DNA of 64,000 nucleotides from Candidatus Bipolaricaulota bacterium (GTDB lineage: Bacteria; Bipolaricaulota; Bipolaricaulia; Bipolaricaulales; Bipolaricaulaceae). The stretch spans positions 2,974 to 66,973 of the forward strand of contig JAUQPF010000051.1 of the NCBI GenBank assembly GCA_030550535.1, in the 5' to 3' direction. Both the position numbers and the translations under genes were made by a program. The first letter of the stretch is position 1; each line of letters opens with the position of its first letter. Below the pieces are notes generated by a model that did not search any database, was not told the DNA's origin, and saw only the letters and a program-made list of their open reading frames with translations. Below, in pieces: positions 5,628-37,259 of this stretch.

Positions 5628-6655
5628 CGCCAACCCCCTCCCCGCTGGATCTGGCGCATGAAGAGGAAGAAGAACACGGGGACCCCAAGGAGCCCGGTGA
5701 GGATGTCCAAAGGGATCTCCGTGGCGAAGGCGGTGCGGGCCACGTTGTCCAAAAGAAGGAGGACCCCAGCGCCAAGCCCGGCGGAAGCGGGGATAAGGAA
5801 GAGATGATCCGGCCCGACCAGGGCGCGGGCGGCGTGGGGCACGATCAGGCCCACCCAGCCCACCACCCCGCTCACGGATACGGCCGCGGCGGTGAGCAGG
5901 GTTCCCAACCCGATCACGAGGAACCGAAGCCTTCGCACGGGCAACCCCAAGGCCTTGGCCTCGGCCTCGCTCAAACTGAGGAGGTTCAACCGCCAGCTCA
6001 GGAGAAAAAGGAGCCCCAGCCCCACGGCGCTCATGATGGCCAGGGGCACCACGTCCCGCCAGAGGACCGCGGGAAGGCCGCCCATGAGCCAGAAGGTGAT
6101 CCCTGGAAGCTGCACGTAGGGGTCGGCGAAGTACTTCACGAGGCCCAAGAGCGCGGAGAAGAAGGAGTTCACGAGGATTCCGGAGAGCACGAGCACGAGG
6201 AGGCCGCCCCCGAAGGCCGCGCCCAAAAAGGCGGCGAGCCCGGCGGCGGCCAGCCCCCCGCCAAAGGCCAGGATCTGGATCCCCGCCGGGCCGGCCCGGA
6301 GCACCAGGGCCAGGGCGGCGCCCAGGCCCGCGCCCGCGCTCACCCCGAGGATCCGCGACTCCACGAGGGGGTTGTGGAAGATTCCCTGGAAGGCTGCGCC
6401 GGCCACGGCGAGGTTGGCGCCCACCAGGGCCGCGGCGGTGGCGCGGGGAAGTCGTACCTGGAGCACAAGGCTGCGGATCAAAGGCTCCCCGCGCCCGAGA
6501 AGGGCGGGGACCACGTCCCCTGGAGCCAGGCGGACCCGGCCCAAAAAGAGCGAGACGAAAAGAAGAGGGAAAGGCAGGACGAGCAAAAGACCGCAAAGGA
6601 CGGCCTGCCTTACCCGCCGAGGAGCGCGGACAGTTCCTCGGAGCTTGGTGTGCAT
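5624..6655 (-). CDS. ABC transporter permease, FecCD family
   Basis: Polytopic membrane protein with FecCD-type motifs (LRLPRATAAALVGANLAVAGAAFQGIFHNPLVES...). Start taken at MHTKLRG (comp 6655). Start uncertain. Confidence 0.85.
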   Translation of the reverse strand: MHTKLRGTVRAPRRVRQAVLCGLLLVLPFPLLFVSLFLGRVRLAPGDVVPALLGRGEPLIRSLVLQVRLPRATAAALVGANLAVAGAAFQGIFHNPLVESRILGVSAGAGLGAALALVLRAGPAGIQILAFGGGLAAAGLAAFLGAAFGGGLLVLVLSGILVNSFFSALLGLVKYFADPYVQLPGITFWLMGGLPAVLWRDVVPLAIMSAVGLGLLFLLSWRLNLLSLSEAEAKALGLPVRRLRFLVIGLGTLLTAAAVSVSGVVGWVGLIVPHAARALVGPDHLFLIPASAGLGAGVLLLLDNVARTAFATEIPLDILTGLLGVPVFFFLFMRQIQRGGGWR

Positions 6656-7605
6656 CCGTAGAACTCCCTGTAGAACGTCTGGATGGCGCCCAGAAGATCC
6701 ACCTGAACCCTTTCGGGGTGCAGCCGCGTAGCCATCCACAGGATCCCGAGGACCGACTCCGGAATGGGGGTGTCCCAGGCGAACAGGATCTGGGGCATCT
6801 TGTACACGCGACCTGCCTTCACCGCCGCGAGGGGCTGCCAGAGGGGATCCGCGCGGAGGTCCTCCGCGCGCACGGGGCTATAGGGCACGATGAAGATCAC
6901 TTCCGGGTTCCAAAGGAGGACCTGCTCGATGTTCACGTTCTGCCAGGAGCCGGGGAGGCCCTGGGTGACGGGGAGGCCGCCGGCGAGCTCCACCAGGCGC
7001 GACTGGTACATGGCCCCGCTGGCGACGCGGAAGGGCGCGGTGCCCACCACCAGCACGCGCGGCCGGGCTTCCGAGGGGATCCCGGCGGTGGCCTGGGCCG
7101 CGGCCTCCAGGACGCTCGCGTAGAAGGCGATGAGCCGCTCCGCCCTCTCCTCTCGGCCCAACGCCTGGGCCAAAAGCCGCGTGGTCTCCTGCACCGCCTC
7201 GAACGTCTCCGGCCCCACCAGGATCGTGGGGATCCCCACCACCTCCAGAAGTTGAGCAAGGTCCCGGTGCTTCAGGCCGGCCACAACGAGGTCGGCCTTG
7301 CGGGCGATGATCTCCTCGGCCGTGATTTCGCCGGGCAAAGCCTTGGCTTCGTAGTTGGGATCAAGCTGGGCCATGAGGGCCCGGGAAAGGGGGTGGTCCG
7401 GGACGCCGAGGTACCGGGCGGCCACGATCCTTTCCCCCTCCACCAGGGCATAGAGGTAAGGTGTGGCCACGCCGAAGGCGCAGACGATGCGCTGGGGCTC
7501 CGCAGGAACGAGGACCTCCCGACCGGCTTGGTCCACCACGCGCACCTGGGCCCATACTCCCAGGGAAAGGCCGACAAAAACCGCCAACGCTACGAGCTTG
7601 CGCAT
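6610..7605 (-). CDS. ABC transporter periplasmic substrate-binding protein (iron-siderophore/cobalamin class)
   Basis: Signal peptide MRKLVALAVFVGLSLGVWAQ. FecB/BtuF-like layout (RIVC.., DLVV.., NPEVIFIV). GGAGGTGAAGG precedes the ATG. Confidence 0.85.
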   Translation of the reverse strand: MRKLVALAVFVGLSLGVWAQVRVVDQAGREVLVPAEPQRIVCAFGVATPYLYALVEGERIVAARYLGVPDHPLSRALMAQLDPNYEAKALPGEITAEEIIARKADLVVAGLKHRDLAQLLEVVGIPTILVGPETFEAVQETTRLLAQALGREERAERLIAFYASVLEAAAQATAGIPSEARPRVLVVGTAPFRVASGAMYQSRLVELAGGLPVTQGLPGSWQNVNIEQVLLWNPEVIFIVPYSPVRAEDLRADPLWQPLAAVKAGRVYKMPQILFAWDTPIPESVLGILWMATRLHPERVQVDLLGAIQTFYREFYGCTPSSEELSALLGG

Positions 7606-8183: not shown

Positions 8184-10235
8184 ATGAGGCTTCTGCTCCT
8201 CCTCATCCTCTGGGCCCTCGCGGCCCTCGCCGGCCCCGAAAAGCTCGATCCCCTCTTGCGCATGCTCGTGGAAGCCCCGGCGGAGCTCCGGCCCGCCGTG
8301 CTCGCCCCCTATGGGCAGGAACCCGACCCCTGTCTTCCCGTGTTCGTGGAGCTTCAAAGCGGGGCGGTGTGGTGGGAGCTTCCAGGGGCGCGCTCCCTCT
8401 TTGGGCCCCTGGCCACGGCCACCGTCCCTCTCTCCCAGCTTCCTAGGCTCGCGGAGCATCCGGGCGTCCTGCGGATTTGGGCCAGCCGCCCCCTCGAGCC
8501 CCTCTTGGACCGCTCGGTCCCGGAGATCGGCGCCCCGGCCCTCTGGTACGGCACCCCCGGCACCACGGGCCAAGGCGTGGTCCTGGGGATCGTGGACTCC
8601 GGGGTGGATATCCTCCATCCCGCTTTCCGCACGGAGACCGGCGGCTCGCGCCTCCTTTTTTACTGGGACCAGACGAGCCCAGGGATGGGGTGGTTCCCGC
8701 CGTTTTGGGGGGACGAGCCCGGGGAGGGGCGCTACGGTCGGGTGTACGAGCGGCGGGACCTGGAGGCCGCGCTGCGCGCGGGAACGAATCCCGCCCCCGA
8801 CGCCCTGGGTCACGGCACCCACGTGGCGGGGATCGCCGCGGGCGGCCCCGCCCTTGGCCTTCCCGGCGTGGCCCCCGGCGCGGACCTCGTGGTGGTGAAG
8901 ACGAACTTCTACGAGGACAGCGTCCTTGACGGCATCCGCTTCGTGCTCGAGGCCGCCCGGTACCTGGGCCGGCCGGCGGTGGTGAACCTCTCCCTGGGAG
9001 GGCATGCCGGCTCCCACGACGGCCGCTCCCCGCTCGAGCGCGCCGTGGACCTCCTCGCCCAAACGCCCGGGGCCCTCATCGTCTGCGCGGCCGGTAACGA
9101 AGGGCAAAGCCGCATCCACGTGGGCGGGGAGATCCGCTCCCCCACCACCTGGACCGTGGTGCCCTCCGCGGCCTTTGTGACGGTGCGCTTTTGGTACGAC
9201 GATCCCGCGCGGTTCATCGTGACCGTGCGCGCGCCCACCGGCGAGGCCCTCACCGTCCTTCCTGGACAGAGCCGGTCCGTGGCCACGTCCTCCGGCCTGG
9301 TTTGGCTCGACAACACCCTCTCCCCTCTCGTTCAGGAGCCACGCCAGGTCTTTCTCACCCTGAGCGGAGCCGCTCGGGAAGCCCAATGGCGCGTCACCTT
9401 TGAACCCATCTTTCCCGGGCGCGTGGACGGCTGGATCGAAAGCGCCAAGATGGGCTATTTCCTTGAGGGCGATGGCGAACGCACCATTGCCGAGCCCGGG
9501 AACGCTTTGTCTGTGATCACCGTGGGCGCCTATGTCACCCGCACGTCCTGGATCTCCCAGGCGGGGGAGCAGCGGGCTGAGGGGTACGCGCTTTGGGCCC
9601 TGGCACCGTTTTCCTCGCGGGGTCCCACGCGGGACGGCCGGCTCAAGCCGGAGCTTGCCGCTCCCGGCGCGTGGATCGCCTCCGCCCTCTCCTCCGCGGC
9701 CGCGCCCTCCTCCTGGTACGTCCTCCCCGATGGCAAGCACATGGTGCTCGCGGGCACGAGCATGGCCGCGCCCCATGTGGCCGGTGCCTGCGCCCTTCTG
9801 TTATCGCTCAGGCCCGATCTCACGCGGACGGAGGTGCTGGCGGCGCTCCAGCGGGGCGCCCGCGCAGACACCCACGTGGGAACCGCCCCCAACGCCGCCT
9901 GGGGATGGGGGAAGCTCGATCTTCCCGGTGCGTGGGCTTCTTTGGGGCCGTCCCAGCGGCCGCCCGCGCCCTGGCTTGCGGCCTTGGACAACCCGGCGCG
10001 CACGGGCGCCACCTTCCGCTACGGCTGCCCGGAGGGCACCGGATGGGCGGAGCTTCAGGTCTACGATCTTTTGGGCCGCCTCCTTTGGCGGGAGAGCCTG
10101 AACCCCGCCGGGGGCCTGGTCCGCTGGGACCTCCGCACCCTCCAGGGGCACGCGGTGGCCAGCGGCCTTTACCTCGCGGTCCTGGTCACGGATCGGGGGG
10201 CGAGCCCTCCCGTGCGGGTGGTGGTGCAACGGTGA
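8184..10235 (+). CDS. secreted subtilisin-like S8 serine protease with T9SS-type/FlgD-Ig-like C-terminal domain
   Basis: Signal MRLLLLLILWALAALAG. Catalytic triad contexts GIVDSGVD, HGTHVAGIAAG, GTSMAAPHVAG. C-terminus ...AELQVYDLLGRLLWRESLNPAGGLVRWDLRTLQGHAVASGLYLAVLVTDRG...VVVQR. Confidence 0.9.
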   Translation: MRLLLLLILWALAALAGPEKLDPLLRMLVEAPAELRPAVLAPYGQEPDPCLPVFVELQSGAVWWELPGARSLFGPLATATVPLSQLPRLAEHPGVLRIWASRPLEPLLDRSVPEIGAPALWYGTPGTTGQGVVLGIVDSGVDILHPAFRTETGGSRLLFYWDQTSPGMGWFPPFWGDEPGEGRYGRVYERRDLEAALRAGTNPAPDALGHGTHVAGIAAGGPALGLPGVAPGADLVVVKTNFYEDSVLDGIRFVLEAARYLGRPAVVNLSLGGHAGSHDGRSPLERAVDLLAQTPGALIVCAAGNEGQSRIHVGGEIRSPTTWTVVPSAAFVTVRFWYDDPARFIVTVRAPTGEALTVLPGQSRSVATSSGLVWLDNTLSPLVQEPRQVFLTLSGAAREAQWRVTFEPIFPGRVDGWIESAKMGYFLEGDGERTIAEPGNALSVITVGAYVTRTSWISQAGEQRAEGYALWALAPFSSRGPTRDGRLKPELAAPGAWIASALSSAAAPSSWYVLPDGKHMVLAGTSMAAPHVAGACALLLSLRPDLTRTEVLAALQRGARADTHVGTAPNAAWGWGKLDLPGAWASLGPSQRPPAPWLAALDNPARTGATFRYGCPEGTGWAELQVYDLLGRLLWRESLNPAGGLVRWDLRTLQGHAVASGLYLAVLVTDRGASPPVRVVVQR

Positions 10236-11017
10236 TCCTCGTTCTCCTTTGGGCGTTGGGGGTCGTGGGGCAGCCGGCCACGGTGGGAGGGGACGTGCTG
10301 TTCGAGCTGGCGAAGCCTGCGCGGGCCGCGGCCCTCGCCGGGGTGGACCTTGCCCTTCCCTCTTGGGCCACGAACCCTGGGGCCCTGGGGTTCCGCGGGG
10401 GATGGGAAATCGTTTCCGGTTACGCTTCGCCCTTCTTTGCCGGTCATTTTGGGCACGTGGCCCTTGCGGGCCCGGGCTTGGCCCTCGAGGCCTTCCTGTT
10501 CTATTCGGGAGAGATTGCCCCCGGGCTTTCCTTTCGCGCGGAGGGCGGGGCCGCCTCCCTTGGGCTTTCCCTGGGAGCTTTGGGGCTGGGCGTTCGTGCG
10601 CGCCTCCTCCATTTCGGTCAGCCCCAAGAGGCCTTGGGCGCCGCCCTGGATCTGGGCTTCCTTTGGCGGGGTTCCCTTTGGCTGGGCGGGGTTGTGAAGA
10701 ACGTGGGGTCCCAATCCCCCTTCCCTGGAGAACCCTGGCCCCTTGACCTCGCCTGTGCCCTGGTGCTCCCCCTCCGGCTTTGGGGGTTCACCCTTTACGC
10801 GGGCGCGGCGGCCCAGGACCTCCTCACCCTTCCCCGCTACGCCGGCGCCTTGGCTTGGGAGGCGGGGGGGCTCGCCTTGGTCGCGAGCGCGGGCACCACG
10901 GGCCTGGCCCTGGGCGGAAGCCTCGCCTGGGCTTCTTTTCGCCTGGAGTGGGCTTTCCTTGGCCATCCCTCCTTGCCCTTGGGTTTTCGCGTATCCTTAG
11001 CCCTGCAATGGCCATGA
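10232..11017 (+). CDS. PorV/PorQ-family-like outer-membrane beta-barrel protein, paralog A (261 aa)
   Basis: GTG 10232 overlaps the protease stop (GTGA). Short signal ILVLLWALGVVGQ. Motif ...KPARAAALAGVDLALPSWATNPGALG... Gly/Ala/Leu-rich alternating beta-strand pattern. Alignable with the 14960-15751 product. Confidence 0.6.
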   Translation: MILVLLWALGVVGQPATVGGDVLFELAKPARAAALAGVDLALPSWATNPGALGFRGGWEIVSGYASPFFAGHFGHVALAGPGLALEAFLFYSGEIAPGLSFRAEGGAASLGLSLGALGLGVRARLLHFGQPQEALGAALDLGFLWRGSLWLGGVVKNVGSQSPFPGEPWPLDLACALVLPLRLWGFTLYAGAAAQDLLTLPRYAGALAWEAGGLALVASAGTTGLALGGSLAWASFRLEWAFLGHPSLPLGFRVSLALQWP

Positions 11018-14000
11018 AGCGCGCCTTTCTTGTTGTTTTCGCCTTGGCCTTTTTGGCCGGGGCCGCGGAGCAAACGCCCTCCGAGACCTTCACCCTCAGG
11101 GTCACGGGGCAAAAGACCTGGGGCCTCCGCCTGGGCTTTGGGGACCCTGCACTTCTTTCTCTGGAGAAGCTCGAGCCCGGCGGATTCACGCTCACCCAAT
11201 CCCTCTGGGCCCAGATCGAGGGCACCGTCCTGGATTTCCTCACCATCCGTGCGAGCTTCAACGACCAATTGGGGCCGGGGTTCCAAGATTTCCTCGTCAT
11301 CGTGGACCGTAAACCCTGGTATGCGGAGCTAGGGCGGTTCGTGGTGGGTGGGGAGGGCGATGCCCTGGGCGTTTACAACAAGCGCGTTTTGGGTGCGCGG
11401 GTCGCCCTGGGCCGGGAGGGGGTGAACCTGAGCGGCCTCGTGGCCCGCCTGGAAGGGATCTCTGAATCCCTCACGTTTCAGGGCGAGGTGGCTCAGGCCG
11501 AGCGCACCTTCGCCTACGAGGATCCCCGCGAGCCTTGGCTTCCCGCGCCTTACCACCTTTCCCTGGAGGGCCTTTGGTTTGTGGAGCTGCGCCTTCCTTT
11601 CGTGGAGGGCTTTTCCAAGCCGGTCCTGCGCTTCCGTACCGGCTCGGAGCTCCAAGAGTTCCTGAGCGATTGGGGCCTAGGGTACCTCGCCGAGCTCGTC
11701 CAAAAAGGGCCCGCTTGGGACCTTCCCTCCGGCGCCTATTTGGTGGTTCAGGACCAGGCCTATACCCTCCTCTTCCGTCAGGAACCCAAGGTGCTCCTGC
11801 GCAACCGCATCCTGGACCTTTTGGACGGGTACAACGCCGCCCAAGGCCTCACCGGGAAGGACAAGAAAACCTACCCCTTCGTGGTGGATAGCGACCTTGA
11901 GGGGGCGTTCCTTGCGGGGCTTTTGGGCCTCACCGAGCTTAGGGTGGACGAGGAGACTTACCCCTTGGGGGAGGCCGGGCGCCGGCGGTTCCTCTACCTT
12001 GGGGAGCCAAACGTGCGCGAGGAGAGCCTCGCCCTTTCCGTACGCCTTCCGGGCGAGCAGGATTTCCGGGATATCAACGATCCAGCGCTGAGCTCGTTCA
12101 GTTACAAGCTTTTCGCCGCGGAAGGCGTCCTGCGCTTGGATTTTCCTGGGGACTTCTTCCGCCCCGGTGCCGCGGTGCACGTACGTTTCGAGTATGCGCG
12201 CACCGCCGGCGCCTACTTCCTGGGCCTCGCCGTCCTTCCGGGATCCGAGCGGGTCTACCTGAACGGCGAGCTCTTGGCCCGGGACAAGGACTACACCGTC
12301 GACTATGAGGTGGGCCTCCTCACCCTTTTCCGCGCCGTGGGGCCCCGGGACGTGGTGCGCGTGGACTTCGAGCGCCAGCGCGGCGCCTTGGGCGTCCCCG
12401 TGGAGTACGAGCGCTACTTCCTTGGCGCCACCTTGGAGATCGGATCGGCCCGGATCGGCGTGTACCAGGCCGCGGATTTGGGCACCCCCTCCCCCACCTC
12501 CCGCACCATGCCCAACACCCACTCCGTCCTCGCTCTCTCCTGGCAAGGCGAGCTTGGGGACTGGCGGTACTCCGCCCGGCTGGGGTTCTCCGAGAACGTT
12601 TTCCCGCCGGATCTGGGCGAGCGCATCCCGGCGCCGAACCGGGTGAACGCGATCGCCGCCGTGCGCCTGGCCGAAGGTGAGGCCGTCGTGTTCGCTCACC
12701 AAAATGGGATCACCGTGTACCAAAACGGGCGTTTTGCGAACTACGGGAGTGCCCAGGGCCTGGCGGGCCGAGCAGCCCTTTCCCTCCTTCCCCTACCTGG
12801 CGGCCTCCTCGTGGGCACCGAATCCGGCCTCACCGTGGTGGACCTCACGGAGCCCGGGGCCCTGGACAAGGTGCGAAGCTGGACGCGCATATATGCGAGC
12901 GACTGGAACAAAAACCGGACGGAAAGGATCACGGGCACGAAGATCCTCGCCCTCGCGCAGGATGGGGAGCGGGTGTACATGGCCACGGAGGTGGAGCTCT
13001 TGGCCGCGCGATACACGGAGGTGACGCAACCCGAGCGCTGGGAACGTCGGCCGCTTCCTCCAGGAACACCGCGGGCGCTCCTTTGGGCGGGCGAGCTTCT
13101 CCTCGGCACCACCGAGGGCCTTTTCCGATGGCAGGAGGGTGGCTGGACGGAGATCCTTTGGGGCGAGGTGTTCGCCCTCCTTGCGCGTCCGCCCGAGCTT
13201 TTTGTGGCCACGACCGAGGGGATTCGCATCCTCCGGGACGGGCAGGGAGCGGGCTGGCTCGCGTACGGTGAGCCCGTGCGGGCCTTGGCCCTCTGGGAAG
13301 ACCAGGTCTGGTACGTCACACCAAGCGGGGTTTATCGCGAGGGCGAGCTTGTGGTCTCCGGGAACTTCCTGGTCCTGGGCGCCGCCGCTGGGGCCCTTTG
13401 GGCTGGCCCGCAAGCCGACGGGAGCTTCCAAATGGACCTTTGGCAGGTGGCCCCCACCCTCCAGCGCTTCCCTCAGGCCCAGACCAAGATCGACGGCCGG
13501 GATCTTTCCCATTTCTCGGACCCCCCGCGGGAGGGGCGCGTGCGCCTGGGCCCCTCCGCGAGCCTCTCCCTTTCCCGAAAGCTCGGGGACTGGGAATGGC
13601 GAATTGGCCTCTACTCGCAATTCCCTGGTTACGAGGAGATCGGGTACGCAAGCCGCACCGACGCCCACGGCCTCAGTTTCTCCGGCCGGTACGCAAGGGA
13701 GGCCTGGTCCTTGGCCGTGCGCGGCCGCGCCGACCTTGCGGAACTCACGGCCTCGCCGAAGCTCCGTCTTTCCGGGGGCGTGGAGGGCGCATGGAAAGGC
13801 CCGTGGAATTTTTCGTTCGCTCTAAACCCAACGCTTTTGCCCTCCGGAAGGGCGCCCACGCTTTCCCTGGATTTCGGAGTGGGCCTGAGCGCCGGCGGAA
13901 ACCCCGCCTGGTCCGCCTCCCTCTCCGGGAAGCTCTCCCTTCCCGAGCTCTACGTGGCCGGAAGCTTCGGGGGAAAGGTTTCCTTCACCCTTTGGCCGGG

Positions 14001-14811
14001 CTTTTCCTTGGCCCTTTCCTGGGCCCGGCCGTACCGGAGCCGCGGCGCGCCCGGAACAGAGACCCTTACGCTCTCCGCCCGCCTCTCCGGCGGGGATGGG
14101 CTCGCCTGGAACGCCTCCTGGGAGGAGCGGCTAAGCCATCCCCTGGGGCAGCCAAGTTGGAGGCAAAGCCGCACGTTGTCGGGCGAAGTGCGCCTCCCGA
14201 CCTGGACGCAGCCCTGGGGCAAACTGGCCACCCGGCTCGTCGGAGCTTTGGACATGGACCCGGCCGAACTTCGGTTGCGCGGGAACCTTTCGGCTAACCT
14301 GGATTTCTCGCCTAACCTTTTGCAGCTTACCTTCGGAGCCGAGCAAAGTTTTAGGCCGGCGAGCGAACGCACGGCCACAACCCTCACCCTCACCGCCTCC
14401 TGGAACTCCATGGCTTGGCAAAACGTGCGCCCCTCTCTGACGTATCGGCACACGTGGAGGCTCTTGACCCATCCGCGCTACCCGCCGCAGGTCACGGAAT
14501 CCCCAAGCTTGGAGGCCCAGGTGACCTGGGAGCTGGGCGGCGGGAACCGCAACGAGCTTCGCCTCACCTGGACCCCAAGCGCGGGGATGAAGGCCCAGGA
14601 TCGTCTGATGTGGCGGACGCCGTGGGGGCCGGTGCAGGTGGAGTCCACCCTTTCCTGGACCGCGGAGAGGCTCACGGGCAAGGTGCGGCTGGAGGGGGGA
14701 CTTGCTTTGGCCCCCCAGTGGGGTTTGAACGTTGAAACAGGCCTCCTTTTTGGCGGAGGCCCCCTGCGCCTGGCCGGCTTCCTCGGCGCCACCCTGGTGG
14801 CGAGCTTCTAA
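11014..14811 (+). CDS. 1265-aa outer-membrane protein: SprA/Sov-like N-terminal region, central beta-propeller-like repeats, barrel-like C-terminus (tentative)
   Basis: ATG 11014 overlaps the upstream stop (ATGA); alternative ATG 11008. Signal MKRAFLVVFALAFLAGAAEQ. Long amphipathic beta-strand stretches. ...VYLNGELLARDKDYTVDYEVGLLTLF... Ends ...GFLGATLVASF (aromatic OMP-type terminus). Confidence 0.6.
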   Translation: MKRAFLVVFALAFLAGAAEQTPSETFTLRVTGQKTWGLRLGFGDPALLSLEKLEPGGFTLTQSLWAQIEGTVLDFLTIRASFNDQLGPGFQDFLVIVDRKPWYAELGRFVVGGEGDALGVYNKRVLGARVALGREGVNLSGLVARLEGISESLTFQGEVAQAERTFAYEDPREPWLPAPYHLSLEGLWFVELRLPFVEGFSKPVLRFRTGSELQEFLSDWGLGYLAELVQKGPAWDLPSGAYLVVQDQAYTLLFRQEPKVLLRNRILDLLDGYNAAQGLTGKDKKTYPFVVDSDLEGAFLAGLLGLTELRVDEETYPLGEAGRRRFLYLGEPNVREESLALSVRLPGEQDFRDINDPALSSFSYKLFAAEGVLRLDFPGDFFRPGAAVHVRFEYARTAGAYFLGLAVLPGSERVYLNGELLARDKDYTVDYEVGLLTLFRAVGPRDVVRVDFERQRGALGVPVEYERYFLGATLEIGSARIGVYQAADLGTPSPTSRTMPNTHSVLALSWQGELGDWRYSARLGFSENVFPPDLGERIPAPNRVNAIAAVRLAEGEAVVFAHQNGITVYQNGRFANYGSAQGLAGRAALSLLPLPGGLLVGTESGLTVVDLTEPGALDKVRSWTRIYASDWNKNRTERITGTKILALAQDGERVYMATEVELLAARYTEVTQPERWERRPLPPGTPRALLWAGELLLGTTEGLFRWQEGGWTEILWGEVFALLARPPELFVATTEGIRILRDGQGAGWLAYGEPVRALALWEDQVWYVTPSGVYREGELVVSGNFLVLGAAAGALWAGPQADGSFQMDLWQVAPTLQRFPQAQTKIDGRDLSHFSDPPREGRVRLGPSASLSLSRKLGDWEWRIGLYSQFPGYEEIGYASRTDAHGLSFSGRYAREAWSLAVRGRADLAELTASPKLRLSGGVEGAWKGPWNFSFALNPTLLPSGRAPTLSLDFGVGLSAGGNPAWSASLSGKLSLPELYVAGSFGGKVSFTLWPGFSLALSWARPYRSRGAPGTETLTLSARLSGGDGLAWNASWEERLSHPLGQPSWRQSRTLSGEVRLPTWTQPWGKLATRLVGALDMDPAELRLRGNLSANLDFSPNLLQLTFGAEQSFRPASERTATTLTLTASWNSMAWQNVRPSLTYRHTWRLLTHPRYPPQVTESPSLEAQVTWELGGGNRNELRLTWTPSAGMKAQDRLMWRTPWGPVQVESTLSWTAERLTGKVRLEGGLALAPQWGLNVETGLLFGGGPLRLAGFLGATLVASF

Positions 14812-14959: not shown

Positions 14960-15751
14960 TCAGAACCGCAGGCCGAACCCGAAGCGGTGGGAGGGCGAAA
15001 GGAGTGGATGGGTGAGGAGGGCGTAGTCCACCTTGTAGTTCCCGAACCGCACGCCGAGCCCCAGGGCCACGCGGAAAACCCCGCCCTCTTGGCGTAGGCC
15101 GGCGCGCACCTCGGCCATCCCCAACAACGCCCAGCCCACGCCGAGCGCGATGTACTCCGAGGTCAGGTCCAGGGCGGCGGAGAGGCCAAAGGGGCTCACC
15201 CAGGCTCCGGCCAGGACGAACTCCGTGGAAAGCCCTCCAAAGGCGAGCTCCCGCAGGACTAGGGCGGCGCGGATCTCCCCAAAAGGCGAGGGGAAGGAGC
15301 CCAAAACGCCCACATCGATTCCAAATCCTGTCGCGGACTCGCCCGCGATGTTCGTGCTTTGGAAGCGAAGGCCGATTCCGCCAAGGACGGGGAAGCCGAA
15401 GGTGCGGAGGTCCAGGCCGAAGCCCGCCAGCAGGCCGAGCTGGGAAAAGCCAAGGTTTTCGCCGGCGGAAGTTCCGAGGTACCCGATCCCCGCGCCCAGG
15501 CTGGGGAGGGCCGCGCCCACGTAGCCCGCGCCCACCCAGCCCGCGAGGATCGTGGAGTCCACAACGATCCCCCGGACTTTGGCCAGGCCCGCGGGGTTAT
15601 AGAGGAGCCCTTCGGCGTCCTCGGCCAGGGCCGCGTAGGCCCCGCCCAGGCCCATGGCCCGGGTGCCCAGGCCCAGGTCGAAAAGGGAAACCTGGGCCCA
15701 GGCCCCCGCGCTCGCCATCGCCACCCAAAAGGCCAGAAAAATTCTGCGCAT
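14960..15751 (-). CDS. PorV/PorQ-family-like outer-membrane beta-barrel protein, paralog B (263 aa)
   Basis: ATG comp(15749-15751) with GGAGGTAAAG upstream, 4 nt after the stop of the 1013-aa gene. Signal MRRIFLAFWVAMASAGAWAQ. Motif LGLGTRAMGLGGAYAALAEDAEGLLYNPAGLA. Ends ...HRFGFGLRF. Confidence 0.7.
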   Translation of the reverse strand: MRRIFLAFWVAMASAGAWAQVSLFDLGLGTRAMGLGGAYAALAEDAEGLLYNPAGLAKVRGIVVDSTILAGWVGAGYVGAALPSLGAGIGYLGTSAGENLGFSQLGLLAGFGLDLRTFGFPVLGGIGLRFQSTNIAGESATGFGIDVGVLGSFPSPFGEIRAALVLRELAFGGLSTEFVLAGAWVSPFGLSAALDLTSEYIALGVGWALLGMAEVRAGLRQEGGVFRVALGLGVRFGNYKVDYALLTHPLLSPSHRFGFGLRF

Positions 15752-15755
15752 GGCT

Positions 15756-18700
15756 TTACCTCCGCACCAAAATCCGGCCGATCTCCGTGCGCTGGATCTG
15801 CCCCTCGATCCTCGCGGTGACGTAGAAGAGGTAGAGCCCATTGGGGACCAGGCGTCCCTCGCGGTCCTTGAGGTCCCAGGTGAAAGTGCCTACGGAGACG
15901 GGTTTATCCAAGAGCACGGGACGTCCGGCCATGTCCAGGATGGTGAGCTTGACGTCGGTGGCCCCTGCCGGCGCAAAGATCTGGATGCGGCACTGGTTCC
16001 CCGTCACGGGGTTGTCGAGGATGAGGAACCCAAAGGTCACGCCGGCGGGGAAAACGGTGATCGTGCGCGTGTAGGGCACGCTCCAGCCCGCGCTGTTCCG
16101 CGCCCGCACCCGGACCGTATAGGCTCCGGGGTTGGTGTACGTATGCGTTGCAGTGTTGGTTTCCGTGGTGGTCGCGGGAGTGCCGTCGCCGAACTCCCAT
16201 TCCCATTCGCTCACAGGGTCGTTGGCAGGCGCCGTGGTTGTAGCGGTGAAAACCACGGGCTTCCCGGCCTCGGGGTTGGGCGGGGTTAGCGAAACCCCCG
16301 TCACGGTGGGCGGCTGCGGCGCCGGGGGCGTGGGCGTGCCTACCGTCACGTCCCTCTTCGCCGTTTCTGCGGCTCCGCCTTCGTCCGTCACGGTGAGGGT
16401 CACCGTGTAGGTGCCGGCCTGGGCGAACGCGCGGGTGACTGGTTGCGGCCCAGTGGTGGTGACCGTCGGCCCGCCGTCACCGAAGTCCCAACGGAATGTG
16501 GCTTTTGTGATGTCGCCGTCGGGGTCCTCGATGTTCGCCGCGGGCGTGAAGGTGATCGTCTGGTTCACCAAGGGCGAAGCTGGACTGAACGAGAAGTCCA
16601 CGTTCCTGGGGGGAGCGTTGGTGACGGTCACCCTCCGCGTGGCTCGGACCTCGCGGTTCGCGTCGTCGCGCACGGCATAGACCACGGTGAACTCCCCGCC
16701 CTTTCGGTAGGTGTGTTTGATGGGGTCGAGAGGCCGGTCGCCCTCGGCGGTCTTGAGCTCCACCACCCGGCCGTCGCCGAAGTCCCAGCGGGCGTAGACG
16801 ACCCCTGTGGCCGGCGACACGGAGGGGGTAAACGTGATCTCGTCGCTCCACTTCGGCGCATCCGGGCTGTAGGTGAAGGTCACCGTGCGCGGGGTCCCCG
16901 TGGCGGTGGTGAACTCCACCCCGGAGGAGAGGAAGTCCAGGGGCTTGGTGAACGTCTGCCCTCCCTCGGTGTGCTGGACCCGCGCACCAGCCATGAATTT
17001 CAGCCCTGCAGGCACGTCCCCCTTGAGGGTCACCCAGATCTCGATGGTCAAGTTTTTGTCGTCGGGGATGACGTTGTTCGCCGTGGTAGGGACCCAAACC
17101 CCGGTGGTGGTGAGGCCGGAGATGCTTGTGGTCTCCCCTAAGAGCCTTCCGGCCGCGTCGCGGACCTCGATCCGGGCCACGTGGGCGTCGCCCACCACCG
17201 TGCCCGTGCTTAGGTTCTTCACAAGAACCCGGGTGATCGTCACGTCGTAGGGGTCGTCGTCCTGGTCCTCAAGATAGAGACGCTGGGCTAAAAAGGTAAG
17301 TCCAGGGAAAACGTTACGGTCTGGGGGGCTTGGGGTCCGGTTTTCCACCTCCAGGCCCGCCGGGCCGACCACGGTGAACGTGGCGGGGCCCTTGAGAACT
17401 TCGGTGGCCAGAGAAGCCCCGCCCTCGGTATACCAGATCTGCGTCGCCAGTTTCAACTTTCGGCCGAGGGGAGCGGTCTCCCTCAAGGTCACATAGAGCT
17501 CGATCTCCACCTCGGTGTCGTCGGGGATGACGTTGTCCGCGGTGAGGGCGATGCGCACGCCGGTGGTGCTGAGGCCGGAGAGGTCCGTGGCTGACCCGAG
17601 AACCGCCCCATCGGCCCGGCGCTTCACCTCGATGCGCGCCACGTGCTGGTCGGCCAAAGGGTCAGAAGCTGTATTGCGCACGAGGACCGAGCCGAGGATC
17701 ACGTCGTAGGGGTCCGGGTCGCTATCCCTAAGCCGGATGCCCTGGGCGAGGAAGGTCTGCCCCGGCACCACCCCTCGGTCGGGGAGGTCCAAGCGCTCCG
17801 TTTCCAGTCCCAAGTCTTCGCGGTGTACTACGGTGAACTTGGGGGCCTTGCCCGGTTCTCCTACGGCGAAATCCGTGCCCTCCAGGCGCACGCTCGCCCC
17901 CAGTTGGATCTTGTGGCCCAAGGGGGCGTCGGACGCCAGGGTGAGCCACACCTCGAGGAGCACCTGGGAGTAGGCATACACGCGGTTGTTGGCCGTGAGC
18001 GTCACCGCGGTTCCTGTGGTGGCGAACTTGTCGAGCTCGCTTCGCGAGGTCTGTTCCCCAAGGAGGGCCCCGTCCAGGGCCCGGCGGACCTCCACCCGCG
18101 TGAGGTACCGCCCGGCGAGGGGGATGACCCCTGAGCCCGAGGCCACGTTCCGAACAAGGAGGCGGCTCAAGGTGAAATCCAAGGGAACTTCGGAGGCGTC
18201 CACCAGGATCCGGGCGGCGAGGAACCGCTGCCCTCGGTACACGGCCTCGCTTGCATCCTCGATTTCTTGAAAGTCTACCTTCGGGCCCACCACGGTGAAC
18301 GTGGCCGCCGCCGGCGGATAGGTGACGGCGTAAGAAGTTGAAGCGGTGTCCTTGACCGAGGTCTCCCCCAGGGCCAGGGCCTTTCCCACCAAGGCCTCGA
18401 GAGATTTCAGCTTCACCAGGATGAACAGCCGGTGCGTCCCGGCGGTGAACCTATTGTTGGTGGTGAGGGCGATCGTTACCCCAGCCGACTCAAAGCCAGC
18501 GAGGGTGGTTTCCTTCTTGAGGAGCGTTCCCGTTTCGCTTCCCCGGCGGATCTCGATGTACTCAAGATCCCCCGCGGCGATCTTCGTTCCGGTGGCGGTG
18601 TTCTTGACGGTGATCTCCCTCAAATCGAGGGTCTGTCCGGTGGGAACCCGGATCTCGATGATCTGGGCCACGAGGAGCGCCCCCGGAAAGACAAAGGCAT

Positions 18701-18797
18701 CGGGAACGGCCACGTTGGTGACCGTTACGGCCCCCGCAGCCGGAAGAACCCAGGCGGCGAGCATCCCCCACACTGCTCCCATCACTGCCCATCGCAT
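15756..18797 (-). CDS. 1013-aa secreted surface protein: signal peptide, 4 x ~150-aa unassigned repeats, 3 PKD domains, T9SS-type/FlgD-Ig-like C-terminal domain
   Basis: Signal MRWAVMGAVWGMLAAWVLPAAGA. Repeats at about aa 24-170, 171-324, 325-477 and 478-632 (each ends ..FTVVGP/FTVVH). PKD signatures WDFGDG (x2) and WEFGDG. C-terminus ...VKLTILDMAGRPVLLDKPVSVGTFTWDLKDREGRLVPNGLYLFYVTA...ILVRR. Confidence 0.9.
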   Translation of the reverse strand: MRWAVMGAVWGMLAAWVLPAAGAVTVTNVAVPDAFVFPGALLVAQIIEIRVPTGQTLDLREITVKNTATGTKIAAGDLEYIEIRRGSETGTLLKKETTLAGFESAGVTIALTTNNRFTAGTHRLFILVKLKSLEALVGKALALGETSVKDTASTSYAVTYPPAAATFTVVGPKVDFQEIEDASEAVYRGQRFLAARILVDASEVPLDFTLSRLLVRNVASGSGVIPLAGRYLTRVEVRRALDGALLGEQTSRSELDKFATTGTAVTLTANNRVYAYSQVLLEVWLTLASDAPLGHKIQLGASVRLEGTDFAVGEPGKAPKFTVVHREDLGLETERLDLPDRGVVPGQTFLAQGIRLRDSDPDPYDVILGSVLVRNTASDPLADQHVARIEVKRRADGAVLGSATDLSGLSTTGVRIALTADNVIPDDTEVEIELYVTLRETAPLGRKLKLATQIWYTEGGASLATEVLKGPATFTVVGPAGLEVENRTPSPPDRNVFPGLTFLAQRLYLEDQDDDPYDVTITRVLVKNLSTGTVVGDAHVARIEVRDAAGRLLGETTSISGLTTTGVWVPTTANNVIPDDKNLTIEIWVTLKGDVPAGLKFMAGARVQHTEGGQTFTKPLDFLSSGVEFTTATGTPRTVTFTYSPDAPKWSDEITFTPSVSPATGVVYARWDFGDGRVVELKTAEGDRPLDPIKHTYRKGGEFTVVYAVRDDANREVRATRRVTVTNAPPRNVDFSFSPASPLVNQTITFTPAANIEDPDGDITKATFRWDFGDGGPTVTTTGPQPVTRAFAQAGTYTVTLTVTDEGGAAETAKRDVTVGTPTPPAPQPPTVTGVSLTPPNPEAGKPVVFTATTTAPANDPVSEWEWEFGDGTPATTTETNTATHTYTNPGAYTVRVRARNSAGWSVPYTRTITVFPAGVTFGFLILDNPVTGNQCRIQIFAPAGATDVKLTILDMAGRPVLLDKPVSVGTFTWDLKDREGRLVPNGLYLFYVTARIEGQIQRTEIGRILVRR

Positions 18798-19116
18798 CGC
18801 CCCATCACCTCGCTTAGTCTAGCCGGCCGGCCTTTTGCTCGTACCCCATCCACTCCACCATCCCTAGTCTACGCGGGTCCGTCTCCCCGCCTAACCTCAC
18901 AGTTACCTCCGTTCCCGACGTTTTCCCCCCGCCCAAGGCCCATTTGTCCCGCCGGTGTGCCGCCCCCGGTCCAACTCGTAGCGTAATGCCTCCACTTTTT
19001 TGCAGTGTACCGAGGGCGACGCTTGCAGGGCAAGCCTCGAAATTTTGGGGCCGACTTAGCTTAGAGAAGGCCACGCTCGCGCGGCCCCTAGGGGGCGCCC
19101 CTCGCCGCGGTAGGGG

Positions 19117-19146
19117 TTGAAGAAGCGCGCGCGTGCGCTTTAAAGT
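19117..19146 (+). promoter_or_regulatory. sigma-70-type promoter for tRNA-Ala (and probably trmFO)
   Basis: TTGAAG (19117-19122), 18-nt spacer, TAAAGT (19141-19146). The tRNA 5' end lies 10 nt downstream. Confidence 0.5.
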
Positions 19147-19155
19147 CTGAGATGT

Positions 19156-19228
19156 GGGGGCGTAGCTCAGCTGGGAGAGCGCCGGCTTTGCAAGCCGGAA
19201 GTCGGCGGTTCGAGTCCGCTCGCCTCCA
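19156..19228 (+). tRNA. tRNA-Ala (anticodon UGC)
   Basis: Hand-folded cloverleaf: acceptor GGGGGCG/CGCCTCC with the G3:U70 alanine identity pair, anticodon loop TTTGCAA, T-loop GGTTCGAGTCC. CCA not encoded. Confidence 0.95.
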
Positions 19229-19246
19229 CTTCTTTTCTTTCCCGCC

Positions 19247-37087: not shown

Positions 37088-37165
37088 TGGTACGCCCGGC
37101 AGGATTTGAACCTGCGACCTCTGGCTCCGGAGGCCAGCGCTCTGTCCGGGCTGAGCTACGGGCGC
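37088..37165 (-). tRNA. tRNA-Arg (anticodon CCG), CCA encoded
   Basis: Reverse complement GCGCCCGTAGCTCAGCCCGGACAGAGCGCTGGCCTCCGGAGCCAGAGGTCGCAGGTTCAAATCCTGCCGGGCGTACCA folds as a cloverleaf. Anticodon loop CTCCGGA. Confidence 0.93.
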
Positions 37166-37167
37166 TG

Positions 37168-37259
37168 CGGAGGGAGCGGGATTCGAACCCGCGGCCAGGG
37201 TTTTAAGCCCCGGCAACGGCTTAGCAAGCCGTCCTCTTCGGCCCCTCGAGCATCCCTCC
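37168..37259 (-). tRNA. tRNA-Ser (anticodon GCU), long variable arm
   Basis: Reverse complement GGAGGGATGCTCGAGGGGCCGAAGAGGACGGCTTGCTAAGCCGT... 3-bp D stem, anticodon loop TTGCTAA, 7-bp variable stem, T arm GCGGGTTCGAATCCCGC, acceptor GGAGGGA/TCCCTCC. Confidence 0.92.

What the first reader, a model, noticed from the sequence alone, without database searches (positions are those of the whole stretch)
11014..14811. Half-size SprA-like giant OMP with an embedded propeller-like segment
The 1265-aa product has a signal peptide and an N-terminal ~540 aa of long amphipathic beta strands (FTLRVTGQKTWGLRLGFG, LTIRASFNDQ, VLGARVALG, and YLNGELLARDKDYTVDYEVGLLTLF, which I associate with SprA-family proteins). 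A central segment of about aa 545-810 (nt ~12646-13444) carries short repeats such as GITVYQNG.F, GLLVGTESGLTVVD, LLLGTTEGLFRW, LFVATTEGIRIL, VWYVTPSGVY. These resemble two-component-regulator-propeller / YVTN repeats of the kind found in PorZ. The C-terminal ~400 aa are rich in S/G/L/W alternating strands and end in ...LVASF. A propeller inside a giant barrel protein is not an architecture I can match to a described family.
Basis: partly seen in the sequence, partly recalled or inferred. Interest (0 to 1): 0.7.

Follow-up and report, generated by a model that had tools for sequence, protein, structure and literature searches.

The report
Compact SprA-like outer-membrane secretion pore
A 1265-residue outer-membrane barrel with a built-in propeller, always encoded beside a tagged protease and a small PorV-type barrel in the deep-branching phylum Bipolaricaulota, looks like a half-size Type 9 secretion pore, a system so far described only in Bacteroidota and their relatives.

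Summary
The ORF is real (window 11014/11008..14811, +). It has a signal peptide and an invariant C-terminal Phe. AlphaFold2 (aa 68-1267, pLDDT 86.7) gives about 39 long beta strands in three blocks, a 300-aa globular domain and a roughly seven-bladed propeller. The best solved-structure matches are the four SprA chains of the Type 9 secretion translocon (Foldseek E 7e-17 to 1e-8); the next hits are at about 4e-7.

The only sequence link to SprA is a 50-70 residue motif. It recurs in 7 of 7 diverse family members and is the family's most conserved stretch. The protein falls far below the SprA family cut-off, and its isolated globular domain does not match SprA.

Context is the strongest evidence. 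About 50 of 55 Bipolaricaulota loci carry the overlapping operon S8 peptidase (with a T9SS type-A-like C-terminal domain), then a PorV/PorQ-family barrel, then the giant barrel. The same trio recurs beside a longer relative in another lineage.

My best reading is a compact T9SS-like export module in an LPS-free diderm (confidence about 0.57). It is a new variant of a known kind. No Pfam or NCBIfam family covers it, and I found no paper describing it. Still untested: motor components, the lateral opening, and whether the protease is cargo or the tag-removing enzyme.

The parts
8184..10235 (+). S8 (subtilisin-type) serine peptidase, 683 aa, with a signal peptide. It is the first gene of the operon, and its stop overlaps the next start (GTGA).
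   Evidence: Pfam Peptidase_S8 E 3.7e-43. The D/H/S motifs are visible in the translation. The overlap was read. It is syntenic in about 50/55 loci.
9963..10232 (+). C-terminal ~90 aa of the S8 peptidase: a T9SS type-A-like C-terminal sorting domain (CTD).
   Evidence: TIGR04183 Por_Secre_tail E 2.6e-4 for this copy. 14/15 aligned CTDs hit it (best 4e-9), and 11/15 hit the PorU CTD (best 1.8e-12). Pfam FlgD_ig hits 12/15 and Por_Secre_tail 6/15. It is 35% identical to the CTD of the PKD protein.
10232..11017 (+). 261-aa small beta-barrel-type protein, a divergent PorV/PorQ-family member. Its stop overlaps the start of the giant gene (ATGA).
   Evidence: This copy has no direct family hit. Syntenic orthologues aligned with it (A3) hit NCBIfam PorV_fam at E 3.9e-17, PorQ at 1.5e-7 and PorV at 9e-5. 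The equivalent gene in L088 hits PorV_fam at E 7.6e-20 over the whole model.
11014..14811 (+). Giant outer-membrane protein, 1265 aa (1267 from the ATG at 11008): the finding itself.
11086..11514 (+). N-terminal block of about 10 long beta strands (aa ~27-169).
   Evidence: DSSP of the AF2 model for aa 68-169. The first three strands were read from the sequence only, because they were cut from the model.
11515..12408 (+). Globular insert (aa 170-467): a helical subdomain followed by beta-sandwich subdomains. I infer it is part of an extracellular cap.
   Evidence: AF2 alone gives pLDDT 90.5 and pTM 0.76. Foldseek gives only generic tandem-Ig matches and no SprA.
12223..12375 (+). SprA-like motif (aa 406-456, VYLNGELLARDKDYTVDYEVGLLTLF...), the most conserved stretch of the family.
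   Evidence: TIGR04189 E 1.4e-4, model positions 601-653. 7/7 family members hit it, best 4.3e-8. 5/6 long relatives hit the same model region. Conservation profile.
12409..12600 (+). Four long beta strands (aa 468-531) with the invariant loop motif MPNTH between them.
   Evidence: DSSP. Invariant M501, P502 and nearly invariant N503, H505.
12625..13518 (+). Embedded beta-propeller of about seven blades (aa ~540-837), of the Reg_prop type.
   Evidence: About 30 short strands in groups of four. PDB profile hit 3ott/3va6 at E 3e-6. Reg_prop/PorZ_N_b_propeller proteins are the best non-family hits. The window segment itself has no direct Pfam hit.
13540..14811 (+). C-terminal block of 25 long beta strands (aa 845-1267) ending in an invariant Phe (BAM-type beta-signal).
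   Evidence: DSSP, with pLDDT mostly above 90. F1267 is invariant.
14960..15751 (-). Second PorV/PorQ-family protein, 263 aa, convergent with the giant gene and directly downstream of the PKD-CTD gene.
   Evidence: NCBIfam PorV_fam E 6.9e-9 and PorV2 4e-6, N-terminal motif only. Weak C-terminal similarity to the 261-aa protein.
15756..18797 (-). 1013-aa secreted protein with N-terminal repeats, three PKD domains and the same CTD (15759-16028). It is a candidate second cargo.
   Evidence: Pfam PKD E 1e-36 to 4e-39, FlgD_ig 9e-7; NCBIfam Por_Secre_tail 1e-3. CTD alignment. Equivalent convergent CTD genes occur in at least 12 other loci.

Best explanation
The gene encodes the pore subunit of a compact, Type-9-like protein export module of the toga-type, LPS-free outer membrane of Bipolaricaulota.

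Proposed mechanism. Proteins carrying a ~90-aa C-terminal sorting domain cross the inner membrane by Sec. Two such proteins are encoded here: the co-encoded S8 peptidase and the neighbouring PKD-repeat protein. In the periplasm they enter a very large single-chain beta barrel of about 38-40 strands. The outer end of this barrel is covered by two inserts: a globular domain carrying the SprA-like motif, and a seven-bladed propeller. A small PorV/PorQ-type barrel encoded next door acts as carrier or anchor. It receives the sorting domain and takes the cargo out of the pore onto the cell surface, as PorV does at the lateral opening of SprA.

The S8 peptidase is translationally coupled to both barrels. 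It is either the main cargo, held on its PorV-like partner by an uncleaved tag as PorU is held on PorV, or additionally the enzyme that removes the tag from other cargo.

Shown here: gene structure, fold class, best structural match, family distribution, synteny, and the family assignments of the neighbours.

Inferred only: the topology (cap and propeller outside), carrier docking, transport itself, and the role of the peptidase.
For: Structure. The AF2 model of aa 68-1267 has pLDDT 86.7, with long-strand blocks, a globular insert and a propeller. The four best PDB matches are SprA chains 8gl8_A, 8gl6_A, 6h3i_A and 6h3j_A, at E 7e-17 to 1e-8. WD40 and LptD follow at about 4e-7, and the 30-strand SlpA barrel at 2e-4 to 5e-4.

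Sequence. SprA (TIGR04189) is the only NCBIfam hit shared by all 7 members scanned (best 4.3e-8). Five of six long relatives hit the same model positions, ~579-653. That motif is the most conserved stretch of the family.

Context in the window. The order is S8 peptidase, small barrel, giant barrel, with GTGA and ATGA overlaps.

Context elsewhere. The same order holds in P0009, P0037 and P0069 (59%, 45% and 30% identity) although all other flanking genes differ. It holds in about 50 of 55 species-level loci with enough upstream DNA.

Small barrel. Its orthologues hit PorV_fam at E 3.9e-17.

Sorting domain. 14/15 CTDs hit T9SS Por_Secre_tail, and 11/15 hit the PorU CTD.

A second set. A second CTD protein with its own PorV-like gene lies convergent to the giant gene here and in at least 12 other loci. 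These include paralogous giant genes that lack the S8 gene.

Another lineage. An independent lineage (L088) has an S8+PKD+CTD protein, then a PorV_fam protein (E 7.6e-20), two small intervening genes, and a 1628-aa relative of the giant.

Host envelope. Bipolaricaulota are diderms without LPS genes and with a toga-like outer membrane (PMC6092417; bioRxiv 10.1101/2025.11.21.689855; 10.1101/2021.05.31.446380).

Reference mechanism. The SprA-PorV-CTD mechanism used as the template is described in PMC10994853.
Against: The curated SprA family threshold is missed by a wide margin: 19 bits against 200, and the hit covers only ~50 residues.

Profiles of the family and of its long relatives do not hit SprA among PDB sequences, even at E<=10.

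The isolated globular domain finds no SprA counterpart. Foldseek gives only generic Ig tandems, E>=1.5e-3 and TMq<=0.17.

Global TM-scores to SprA are low (0.32/0.20, rmsd 23 A). Part of the Foldseek score may only reflect that both proteins are exceptionally long barrels.

The window's own 261-aa protein has no direct PorV hit.

No other T9SS component was seen in the parts of the 64-kb window I scanned. That covers the cluster and its flanks, about 1.9-25.4 kb; the remainder was not scanned. GldK/L/M/N, SprE, SprT, PorU, PorZ and Plug could not be searched genome-wide.

There is no LPS to which cargo could be attached.

The DSSP strand count is odd (about 39), so the topology is not fully resolved. 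No model coordinates were available to look for a lateral opening.
Confidence: 0.57

Rival explanations
1. A dedicated surface-display or secretion device for the one co-encoded S8 protease, analogous to a two-partner or autotransporter-like arrangement. The giant barrel and the small barrel serve only to export and anchor this protease for extracellular protein degradation. The resemblance to T9SS parts would reflect shared ancient domains, not a general tag-directed secretion pathway.
For: The protease, small barrel and giant barrel are translationally coupled and almost invariably syntenic. S8 peptidases also lie near the Bacillota-type relatives. The CTD homologue search found few additional tagged proteins.
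Against: A second, unrelated CTD protein (PKD-repeat) with its own PorV-like gene sits next to the giant gene here and in at least 12 other loci. Some paralogous giant genes pair with such a set and have no S8 gene. NCBI already names a Bipolaricaulaceae fragment as a T9SS type A sorting domain protein. Together these point to a modular tag.
Confidence: 0.2
2. A structural or uptake component of the toga outer membrane. On this reading it is a very large porin-like or S-layer-anchoring barrel (as SlpA is in Deinococcus), whose propeller binds envelope or nutrient polymers. The FadL-related small barrels would import hydrophobic or peptide products released by the protease.
For: Large barrels of other function also match the model: LptD at 5e-7, SlpA at 2e-4 to 5e-4, ushers at 2e-4. 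PorV belongs to the FadL-like class, and the 263-aa protein weakly hits a FadL/OmpP1 model. The cultured relative has an S-layer on its toga, and its authors propose transport roles for the toga (10.1101/2025.11.21.689855).
Against: SprA matches are 10 or more orders of magnitude better than any other barrel. The conserved SprA motif and the T9SS-type CTDs on adjacent genes are not explained by this reading. There is no SLH or coiled-coil anchoring domain.
Confidence: 0.13
3. The SprA likeness is purely a length artefact and the three genes are functionally unrelated neighbours.
For: TM-scores are low. There is no SprA hit for the isolated domain or by PDB sequence profile.
Against: Synteny holds across 30-100% identity with changing flanks, and with overlapping start and stop codons. 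The trio recurs in another lineage. The SprA motif hit is reproduced in 12 of 13 proteins scanned, at the same model positions.
Confidence: 0.05

Closest known systems
SprA/Sov, the Type 9 secretion system outer-membrane translocon of Bacteroidota (TIGR04189; PDB 6H3I, 6H3J, 8GL6, 8GL8)
   Same: Both are very large single-chain outer-membrane barrels with folded inserts. SprA is the best solved-structure match. They share a conserved motif at SprA model positions ~579-653. The gene is adjacent to a PorV/PorQ-family gene and to genes with type-A-like CTDs.
   Different: This protein is half the length (1265 against ~2300-2400 aa). It scores 19 bits against a cut-off of 200. One of its inserts is a seven-bladed Reg_prop-type propeller, which I do not recall for SprA (from memory, not checked here). 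Its globular insert has no detectable SprA counterpart. It occurs in Bipolaricaulota, Fraserbacteria and Bacillota-labelled MAGs, whereas the T9SS papers retrieved here place T9SS only in Bacteroidota or the FCB group (abstracts listed). No motor or ring genes lie nearby.
PorU-PorV and PorZ-PorQ attachment complexes of the T9SS
   Same: A peptidase carrying a T9SS-type CTD is encoded with a PorV/PorQ-family barrel. A second CTD protein is paired with a second PorV/Q-like barrel. The attachment-complex composition (PorQ, U, V, Z) is stated in PMC12365241.
   Different: The peptidase here is a serine S8 enzyme, not a PorU-type one. The barrels are shorter (261-263 aa, against NCBIfam models of 326-367 positions). 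There is no LPS to attach cargo to (PMC6092417). The propeller is fused into the pore protein, whereas PorZ is a separate protein.
Periplasmic sensor propellers of hybrid two-component systems (Reg_prop, PF07494; PDB 3OTT, 3VA6, 4A2L)
   Same: The repeat type of the central segment is the same. The family profile hits 3ott/3va6 at E 3e-6, and the long relatives hit 4a2l at 2e-4.
   Different: Here there is a single propeller inserted between strands of an outer-membrane barrel. There is no Y_Y_Y, kinase or regulator domain.
LptD, the 26-strand LPS-insertion barrel
   Same: Both are large outer-membrane barrels. LptD is a secondary Foldseek match at E 5e-7.
   Different: The match is far weaker than to SprA. 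There is no LptD family hit. The phylum lacks LPS genes (PMC6092417).

Membership tests
SprA/Sov T9SS translocon (TIGR04189) | Whole-protein score at or above the curated cut-off (200 bits) of the equivalog model | tested here: not met
   19.2 bits, E 1.4e-4, only aa 406-456 against model 601-653. The best family member scores E 4.3e-8, still a local hit.
SprA/Sov T9SS translocon (TIGR04189) | Giant single-chain outer-membrane beta barrel (36 strands in SprA) that resembles solved SprA | tested here: met
   About 39 long strands by DSSP. SprA chains are the top four Foldseek hits, E 7e-17 to 1e-8, prob 1.0, but TM is only 0.32/0.20.
SprA/Sov T9SS translocon (TIGR04189) | Extracellular cap domains homologous to those of SprA | tested here: not met
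   The isolated insert aa 170-467 (pLDDT 90.5) finds no SprA chain; best hits are generic Ig tandems, E>=1.5e-3.
SprA/Sov T9SS translocon (TIGR04189) | Lateral opening of the barrel to which PorV docks | not testable with these tools
SprA/Sov T9SS translocon (TIGR04189) | Works with a PorV-family carrier and with CTD-tagged substrates | tested here: met
   This is met at the genomic level only. An adjacent PorV/PorQ-family gene is present (orthologues E 3.9e-17; L088 E 7.6e-20). Adjacent genes carry a Por_Secre_tail-type CTD (14/15).
SprA/Sov T9SS translocon (TIGR04189) | Co-occurrence with GldK/L/M/N (PorK/L/M/N) motor and ring, SprE/PorW and SprT/PorT | tested here: inconclusive
   None was seen in the scanned parts of the window (cluster and flanks, ~1.9-25.4 kb). 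None appears in the called genes of L001-L005. Whole genomes could not be searched.
SprA/Sov T9SS translocon (TIGR04189) | Restriction to Bacteroidota / FCB group, as stated in the T9SS papers retrieved here (abstracts) | tested here: not met
   Hosts are Bipolaricaulota/Acetothermia, one Fraserbacteria MAG, and Bacillota/Limnochordaceae MAGs for the long relatives.
PorV/PorQ family (NF033709), for the 261-aa neighbour | Match to the subfamily model (cut-off 90 bits) | tested here: inconclusive
   The window copy has no hit. 2/9 syntenic orthologues hit, best E 3.9e-17. The L088 equivalent scores 71.7 bits over the full model, below the cut-off. The 263-aa paralogue hits at E 6.9e-9, N-terminal motif only.
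T9SS type A C-terminal sorting domain (TIGR04183 / PF18962), for the S8 and PKD proteins | Match to the domain model at the extreme C-terminus | tested here: met
   14/15 CTDs hit TIGR04183 (best 4e-9), and 6/15 hit PF18962 (best 2.9e-8). The window copies score 20.9 and 19.0 bits, just under the 23-bit cut-off.
Reg_prop beta-propeller (PF07494), for the central segment | Repeats matching the Reg_prop model and a propeller fold | tested here: inconclusive
   The fold is about seven four-stranded blades. The family profile hits HTCS propellers 3ott/3va6 at E 3e-6 and Reg_prop proteins at E~1e-40. The window segment has no Pfam hit at E<=0.01, and only faint precomputed PF07494 hits exist in distant members.
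   There are no Pfam or NCBIfam hits. LptD scores Foldseek E 5e-7, ten orders of magnitude worse than SprA, and no TamB/AsmA chain is among the 50 listed hits.

The most novel reading that the evidence does not exclude
A minimal, possibly motor-independent Type-9-like secretion pathway exists in LPS-free diderm lineages outside the FCB group: Bipolaricaulota, Fraserbacteria, and Bacillota-labelled MAGs including a Limnochordaceae MAG. It would be built from a half-size SprA-type pore with a fused propeller cap, a short PorV-type carrier, and a serine (S8) peptidase that takes the role PorU plays in Bacteroidota. If so, tag-directed SprA/PorV secretion is far older and more widespread than thought.
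Probability: 0.3. Interest if true: 0.9.

Novelty: new variant of a known kind. Interest (0 to 1): 0.74.

Why it matters
The T9SS papers retrieved here describe Type 9 secretion as specific to Bacteroidota or the FCB group (abstracts listed). Its pore, SprA, is a 2400-residue protein that is hard to study.

A half-size relative, conserved across the sampled Bipolaricaulota and tightly coupled to a PorV-type barrel and a tagged protease, would do three things. It would extend this secretion principle to deep-branching bacteria with LPS-free, toga-like outer membranes. It would give a minimal three-gene system in which to ask what a SprA-type pore needs in order to work, including whether a motor is required. 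It would offer a first candidate route for surface protein export in a phylum whose first isolate has only just been reported (bioRxiv 10.1101/2025.11.21.689855).

All members found carry the label 'hypothetical protein' or no name at all.

Tried and rejected
I used aa 68-1267 for the model and aa 86-1267 for the profile.

2. PDB sequence-profile searches, with the family and with the long relatives, found only Reg_prop sensor propellers and never SprA.

3. I modelled the globular insert alone to test SprA cap homology independently of barrel length. The model was confident but had no specific match. Cap homology is therefore not claimed.

4. A PDB profile search with the small barrel found nothing useful.

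5. The word-indexed search with the 261-aa protein returned only six close relatives. The search with the CTD profile returned only seven short fragments. The size of the cargo repertoire therefore remains unknown.

6. The LptD and TamB/AsmA assignments were rejected.

7. A PorZ-specific origin of the propeller was rejected in favour of the general Reg_prop class. The giant protein has no PorZ model hit, and PorZ chains are not among the 50 Foldseek hits listed.

8. A look-up of the exact window protein in the contig index found nothing.

9. The 210-aa ORF at 18814..19446 (-) was dropped as spurious because a tRNA-Ala gene lies inside it.

10. My first automatic synteny count (41/55) was too low, because stop-to-stop ORFs run far upstream in this GC-rich DNA. 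Inspection of the per-locus table gives about 50/55.
Full report
**The observation**

The window is GC-rich (about 67%), so many spurious ORFs overlap the real genes. The ORF in question runs in frame from 10780 to 14811. Its plausible starts are the ATG at 11008 (1267 aa) and the ATG at 11014 (1265 aa). The 11014 start overlaps the stop of the upstream gene as ATGA, and homologues begin MxR. Residue numbers below count from 11008.

The N-terminus is a Sec-type signal. The C-terminal Phe is invariant in 39 aligned homologues, as expected for a protein inserted by the BAM machinery. Pfam finds nothing in the protein. NCBIfam finds only a weak local hit to the SprA model TIGR04189: E 1.4e-4, aa 406-456 against model positions 601-653, 19 bits against a cut-off of 200.

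**Family and host**

A word-indexed search found 71 homologues of 1257-1404 aa, down to 30% identity. Every one that carries a source name is from Candidatus Bipolaricaulota (Acetothermia, OP1). None has a function name.

A scan of one genome per species found 199 stretches encoding a relative. The best 80 are almost all Bipolaricaulota. Some are labelled 'uncultured Thermotogae', one is a Fraserbacteria MAG, and a few carry probably mis-binned labels.

The exhaustive profile search found 114 cluster representatives at E<1e-30. Most of the listed hits above E~1e-60 are family members of about 1260-1460 aa or fragments of them. A group of longer relatives (1460-1730 aa) aligns over the insert, propeller and barrel. 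Those with names come from Bacillota and Limnochordaceae MAGs.

According to the literature held here, Bipolaricaulota lack LPS genes but have outer-membrane markers (PMC6092417). They have an OmpM-like tether of the Thermotogae type (bioRxiv 10.1101/2021.05.31.446380). The first isolate shows a toga-like outer membrane with an S-layer (bioRxiv 10.1101/2025.11.21.689855). A large outer-membrane protein is therefore plausible in this host.

**Structure**

The prediction tool is limited to 1200 residues, so I modelled aa 68-1267 with the 71-sequence alignment. The result was mean pLDDT 86.7 and pTM 0.53. The secondary structure shows:
- eight long strands at aa 69-169, with about three more readable in the part that was cut off, one of them continuous with the first modelled strand (about 10 in all);
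- a mixed helical and beta-sandwich insert at aa 170-467;
- four long strands at aa 468-531;
- about 30 short strands in about seven groups of four at aa ~540-837, that is, a propeller;
- 25 long strands running to the C-terminus.

Taking the C-terminus as periplasmic, the odd number of C-terminal strands places the propeller outside the cell. The four strands between the two inserts place the globular insert on the same side. With this assignment the 'outside' loops average about 5 residues and the 'inside' turns about 3, which is the usual asymmetry. This topology is inference, not demonstration. The total strand count of about 39 is odd, so one element is miscounted.

**Comparison with solved structures**

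Foldseek against the PDB puts four SprA chains first: 8gl8_A at 7e-17, 8gl6_A at 1e-16, 6h3i_A at 5e-15 and 6h3j_A at 1e-8. WD40 propellers (4e-7) and LptD (5e-7) follow. The 30-strand Deinococcus SlpA barrel scores only 2e-4 to 5e-4. TM-scores to SprA are low (0.32 by query, 0.20 by target), as expected for a half-length protein. Part of the score may come simply from both proteins being very long barrels.

To test homology independently of barrel length, I modelled the globular insert alone (pLDDT 90.5, pTM 0.76). It found no SprA chain, only generic tandem-Ig matches. Sequence profiles of the family, and of its long relatives, do not reach SprA among PDB sequences either.

Against these negatives, the local TIGR04189 hit is highly reproducible. 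It appears in 7 of 7 diverse family members (best 4.3e-8) and in 5 of 6 long relatives (3e-8 to 4e-5), always at model positions ~579-653. This motif (aa ~391-460) is the most conserved stretch of the whole family.

**The propeller**

The family profile hits the periplasmic sensor propellers of hybrid two-component systems (3ott/3va6, E 3e-6). The long relatives hit 4a2l and 3v9f. Of the five non-family hits of the exhaustive search that I scanned with Pfam, two are Reg_prop proteins that also match the Pfam PorZ N-terminal propeller model. The other three are BNR/sortilin-type propeller proteins.

The window segment itself has no direct Pfam hit. A specific link to PorZ is not.

**Genomic context**

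Context is the most informative result. The gene is the third of three overlapping genes.

1. An S8 serine peptidase at 8184..10235 (Pfam E 3.7e-43). Its last ~90 residues are a T9SS type-A-like sorting domain.
2. A 261-aa protein at 10232..11017. Its start overlaps the peptidase stop as GTGA.
3. The giant gene, with its ATGA overlap.

The same order is found next to homologues of 59%, 45% and 30% identity, although every other flanking gene differs. It holds in about 50 of 55 species-level loci that have at least 3 kb of upstream DNA.

The small protein has no family hit in this window. Its syntenic orthologues do show the PorV/PorQ signature, hitting NCBIfam PorV_fam at E 3.9e-17, PorQ at 1.5e-7 and PorV at 9e-5.

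The C-terminal domains of the peptidase orthologues align well (NP..., GRLV, WDL, NGLYL...R). Of 15 aligned domains, 14 hit TIGR04183 Por_Secre_tail (best 4e-9), 11 hit the CTD of the PorU model (1.8e-12), 12 hit Pfam FlgD_ig and 6 hit Pfam Por_Secre_tail.

Convergent with the giant gene lies a second pair. A 1013-aa protein with repeats, three PKD domains and the same CTD (35% identical to the peptidase CTD) is followed by a 263-aa protein that hits PorV_fam at E 6.9e-9. Equivalent convergent CTD genes occur in at least 12 other loci. They also occur next to paralogous giant genes that lack the S8 gene.

In a different lineage (locus L088, long relative P0150), a 1373-aa S8+PKD protein with the CTD is followed by a 316-aa protein that matches PorV_fam over the whole model (E 7.6e-20). 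Two small genes later comes the 1628-aa giant relative. In Limnochordaceae-type loci, an S8 peptidase with a CarboxypepD_reg domain lies two genes away.

Of the rest of the window I scanned only the flanks at about 1.9-7.6 kb and 18.8-25.4 kb, and those genes are housekeeping. The region beyond about 25.4 kb was not scanned against family libraries.

**Interpretation**

In Bacteroidota, substrates with a C-terminal domain enter the capped SprA barrel from the periplasm. They bind loops of the carrier PorV, which protrude through a lateral opening, and they leave with PorV (PMC10994853). PorU and PorZ sit on PorV and PorQ in attachment complexes (PMC12365241).

The module here has counterparts of the pore, the carrier and the tag, plus a peptidase that carries the tag itself. 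The most economical reading is a compact Type-9-like export module. The globular insert (with the conserved SprA-like motif) and the propeller would form the cap. The small barrels would act as carriers or anchors. The peptidase would be the main cargo, the tag-removing enzyme, or both.

The case rests on a convergence of independent weak-to-moderate signals together with very strong synteny. No single decisive match supports it. I put it at about 0.57.

The rivals are these:
- A device dedicated to the one protease (0.2).
- A structural or uptake barrel of the toga (0.13).
- Chance resemblance between unrelated neighbouring genes (0.05).

**Membership and novelty**

The protein is not a member of the curated SprA family. 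It fails the threshold, the length, the taxonomic range and the cap-domain test. It should be described as SprA-like, not as SprA.

No paper in the held library links T9SS with Bipolaricaulota, Thermotogota or Limnochordia. The T9SS papers retrieved describe the system as confined to Bacteroidota or the FCB group (abstracts listed). NCBI's pipeline already names one Bipolaricaulaceae fragment a 'T9SS type A sorting domain-containing protein', so the tag has been noticed automatically. The pore and the module have not.

I rate it a new variant of a known kind, interest 0.74. It would rank higher if the motor-independent, ancient-origin reading proved true.

Noticed in passing
window 15756..18797 (-): The 1013-aa CTD protein begins with about four tandem copies of a ~165-aa domain that has no Pfam match. 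Three PKD domains and the sorting domain follow. No DNA-level tandem repeat is detected. It could be an adhesin or an S-layer or toga surface protein.
   Followed up: partly
window 18814..19446 (-) and 19156..19229 (+): A 210-aa ORF upstream of the PKD gene has no family hit and contains a tRNA-Ala(TGC) gene on the other strand, so the ORF is probably spurious. tRNA-Arg(CCG) and tRNA-Ser(GCT) lie at 37088..37259 (-).
   Followed up: yes
L086 313..10362 and L089 8001..17287: In Limnochordaceae/Bacillota MAGs, the longer relatives (1464-1603 aa) are followed by a ~900-aa NAGPA-domain protein and a convergent CarboxypepD_reg + S8 peptidase. This neighbourhood differs from the Bipolaricaulota one but is also recurrent.
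   Followed up: partly
L025, L034, L039, L042 (one MAG, T3Sed10_47): One Acetothermia MAG has four contigs with giant-barrel paralogues. Two of them are paired with a convergent CTD protein plus a PorV-like gene, and have no upstream S8 peptidase.
   Followed up: partly
L068, L078, L085: Three distant family members (about 900 bits to the family profile) have neither the S8 gene nor the small barrel nearby. Their neighbourhoods were not examined.
   Followed up: no
L007, L012, L016, L026, L044 and others: Many genomes carrying this Bipolaricaulota-type operon are titled 'uncultured Thermotogae/Thermotogaceae' or 'Thermotoga sp.' in their records. One is titled Neomarinimicrobiota and one MAG (two contigs, L037 and L056) Chloroflexi. 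These are probably labelling or binning issues, not real hosts.
   Followed up: no
window ~4842..7605 (-); L001 3323..6600: Genes for a FecCD-type permease and a periplasmic binding protein lie just upstream of the S8 gene in the window. The 59%-identity relative L001 has FecCD, ABC ATPase and binding-protein genes plus a PadR regulator at the same place. This flank is shared only among close relatives.
   Followed up: partly
giant protein aa 497-548 (window ~12496..12651): Two invariant loop motifs, RTMPNTH and NVFP...R....N, flank the last pair of strands before the propeller. By the inferred topology they lie at the outer rim of the barrel, and they are candidate functional sites.
   Followed up: partly
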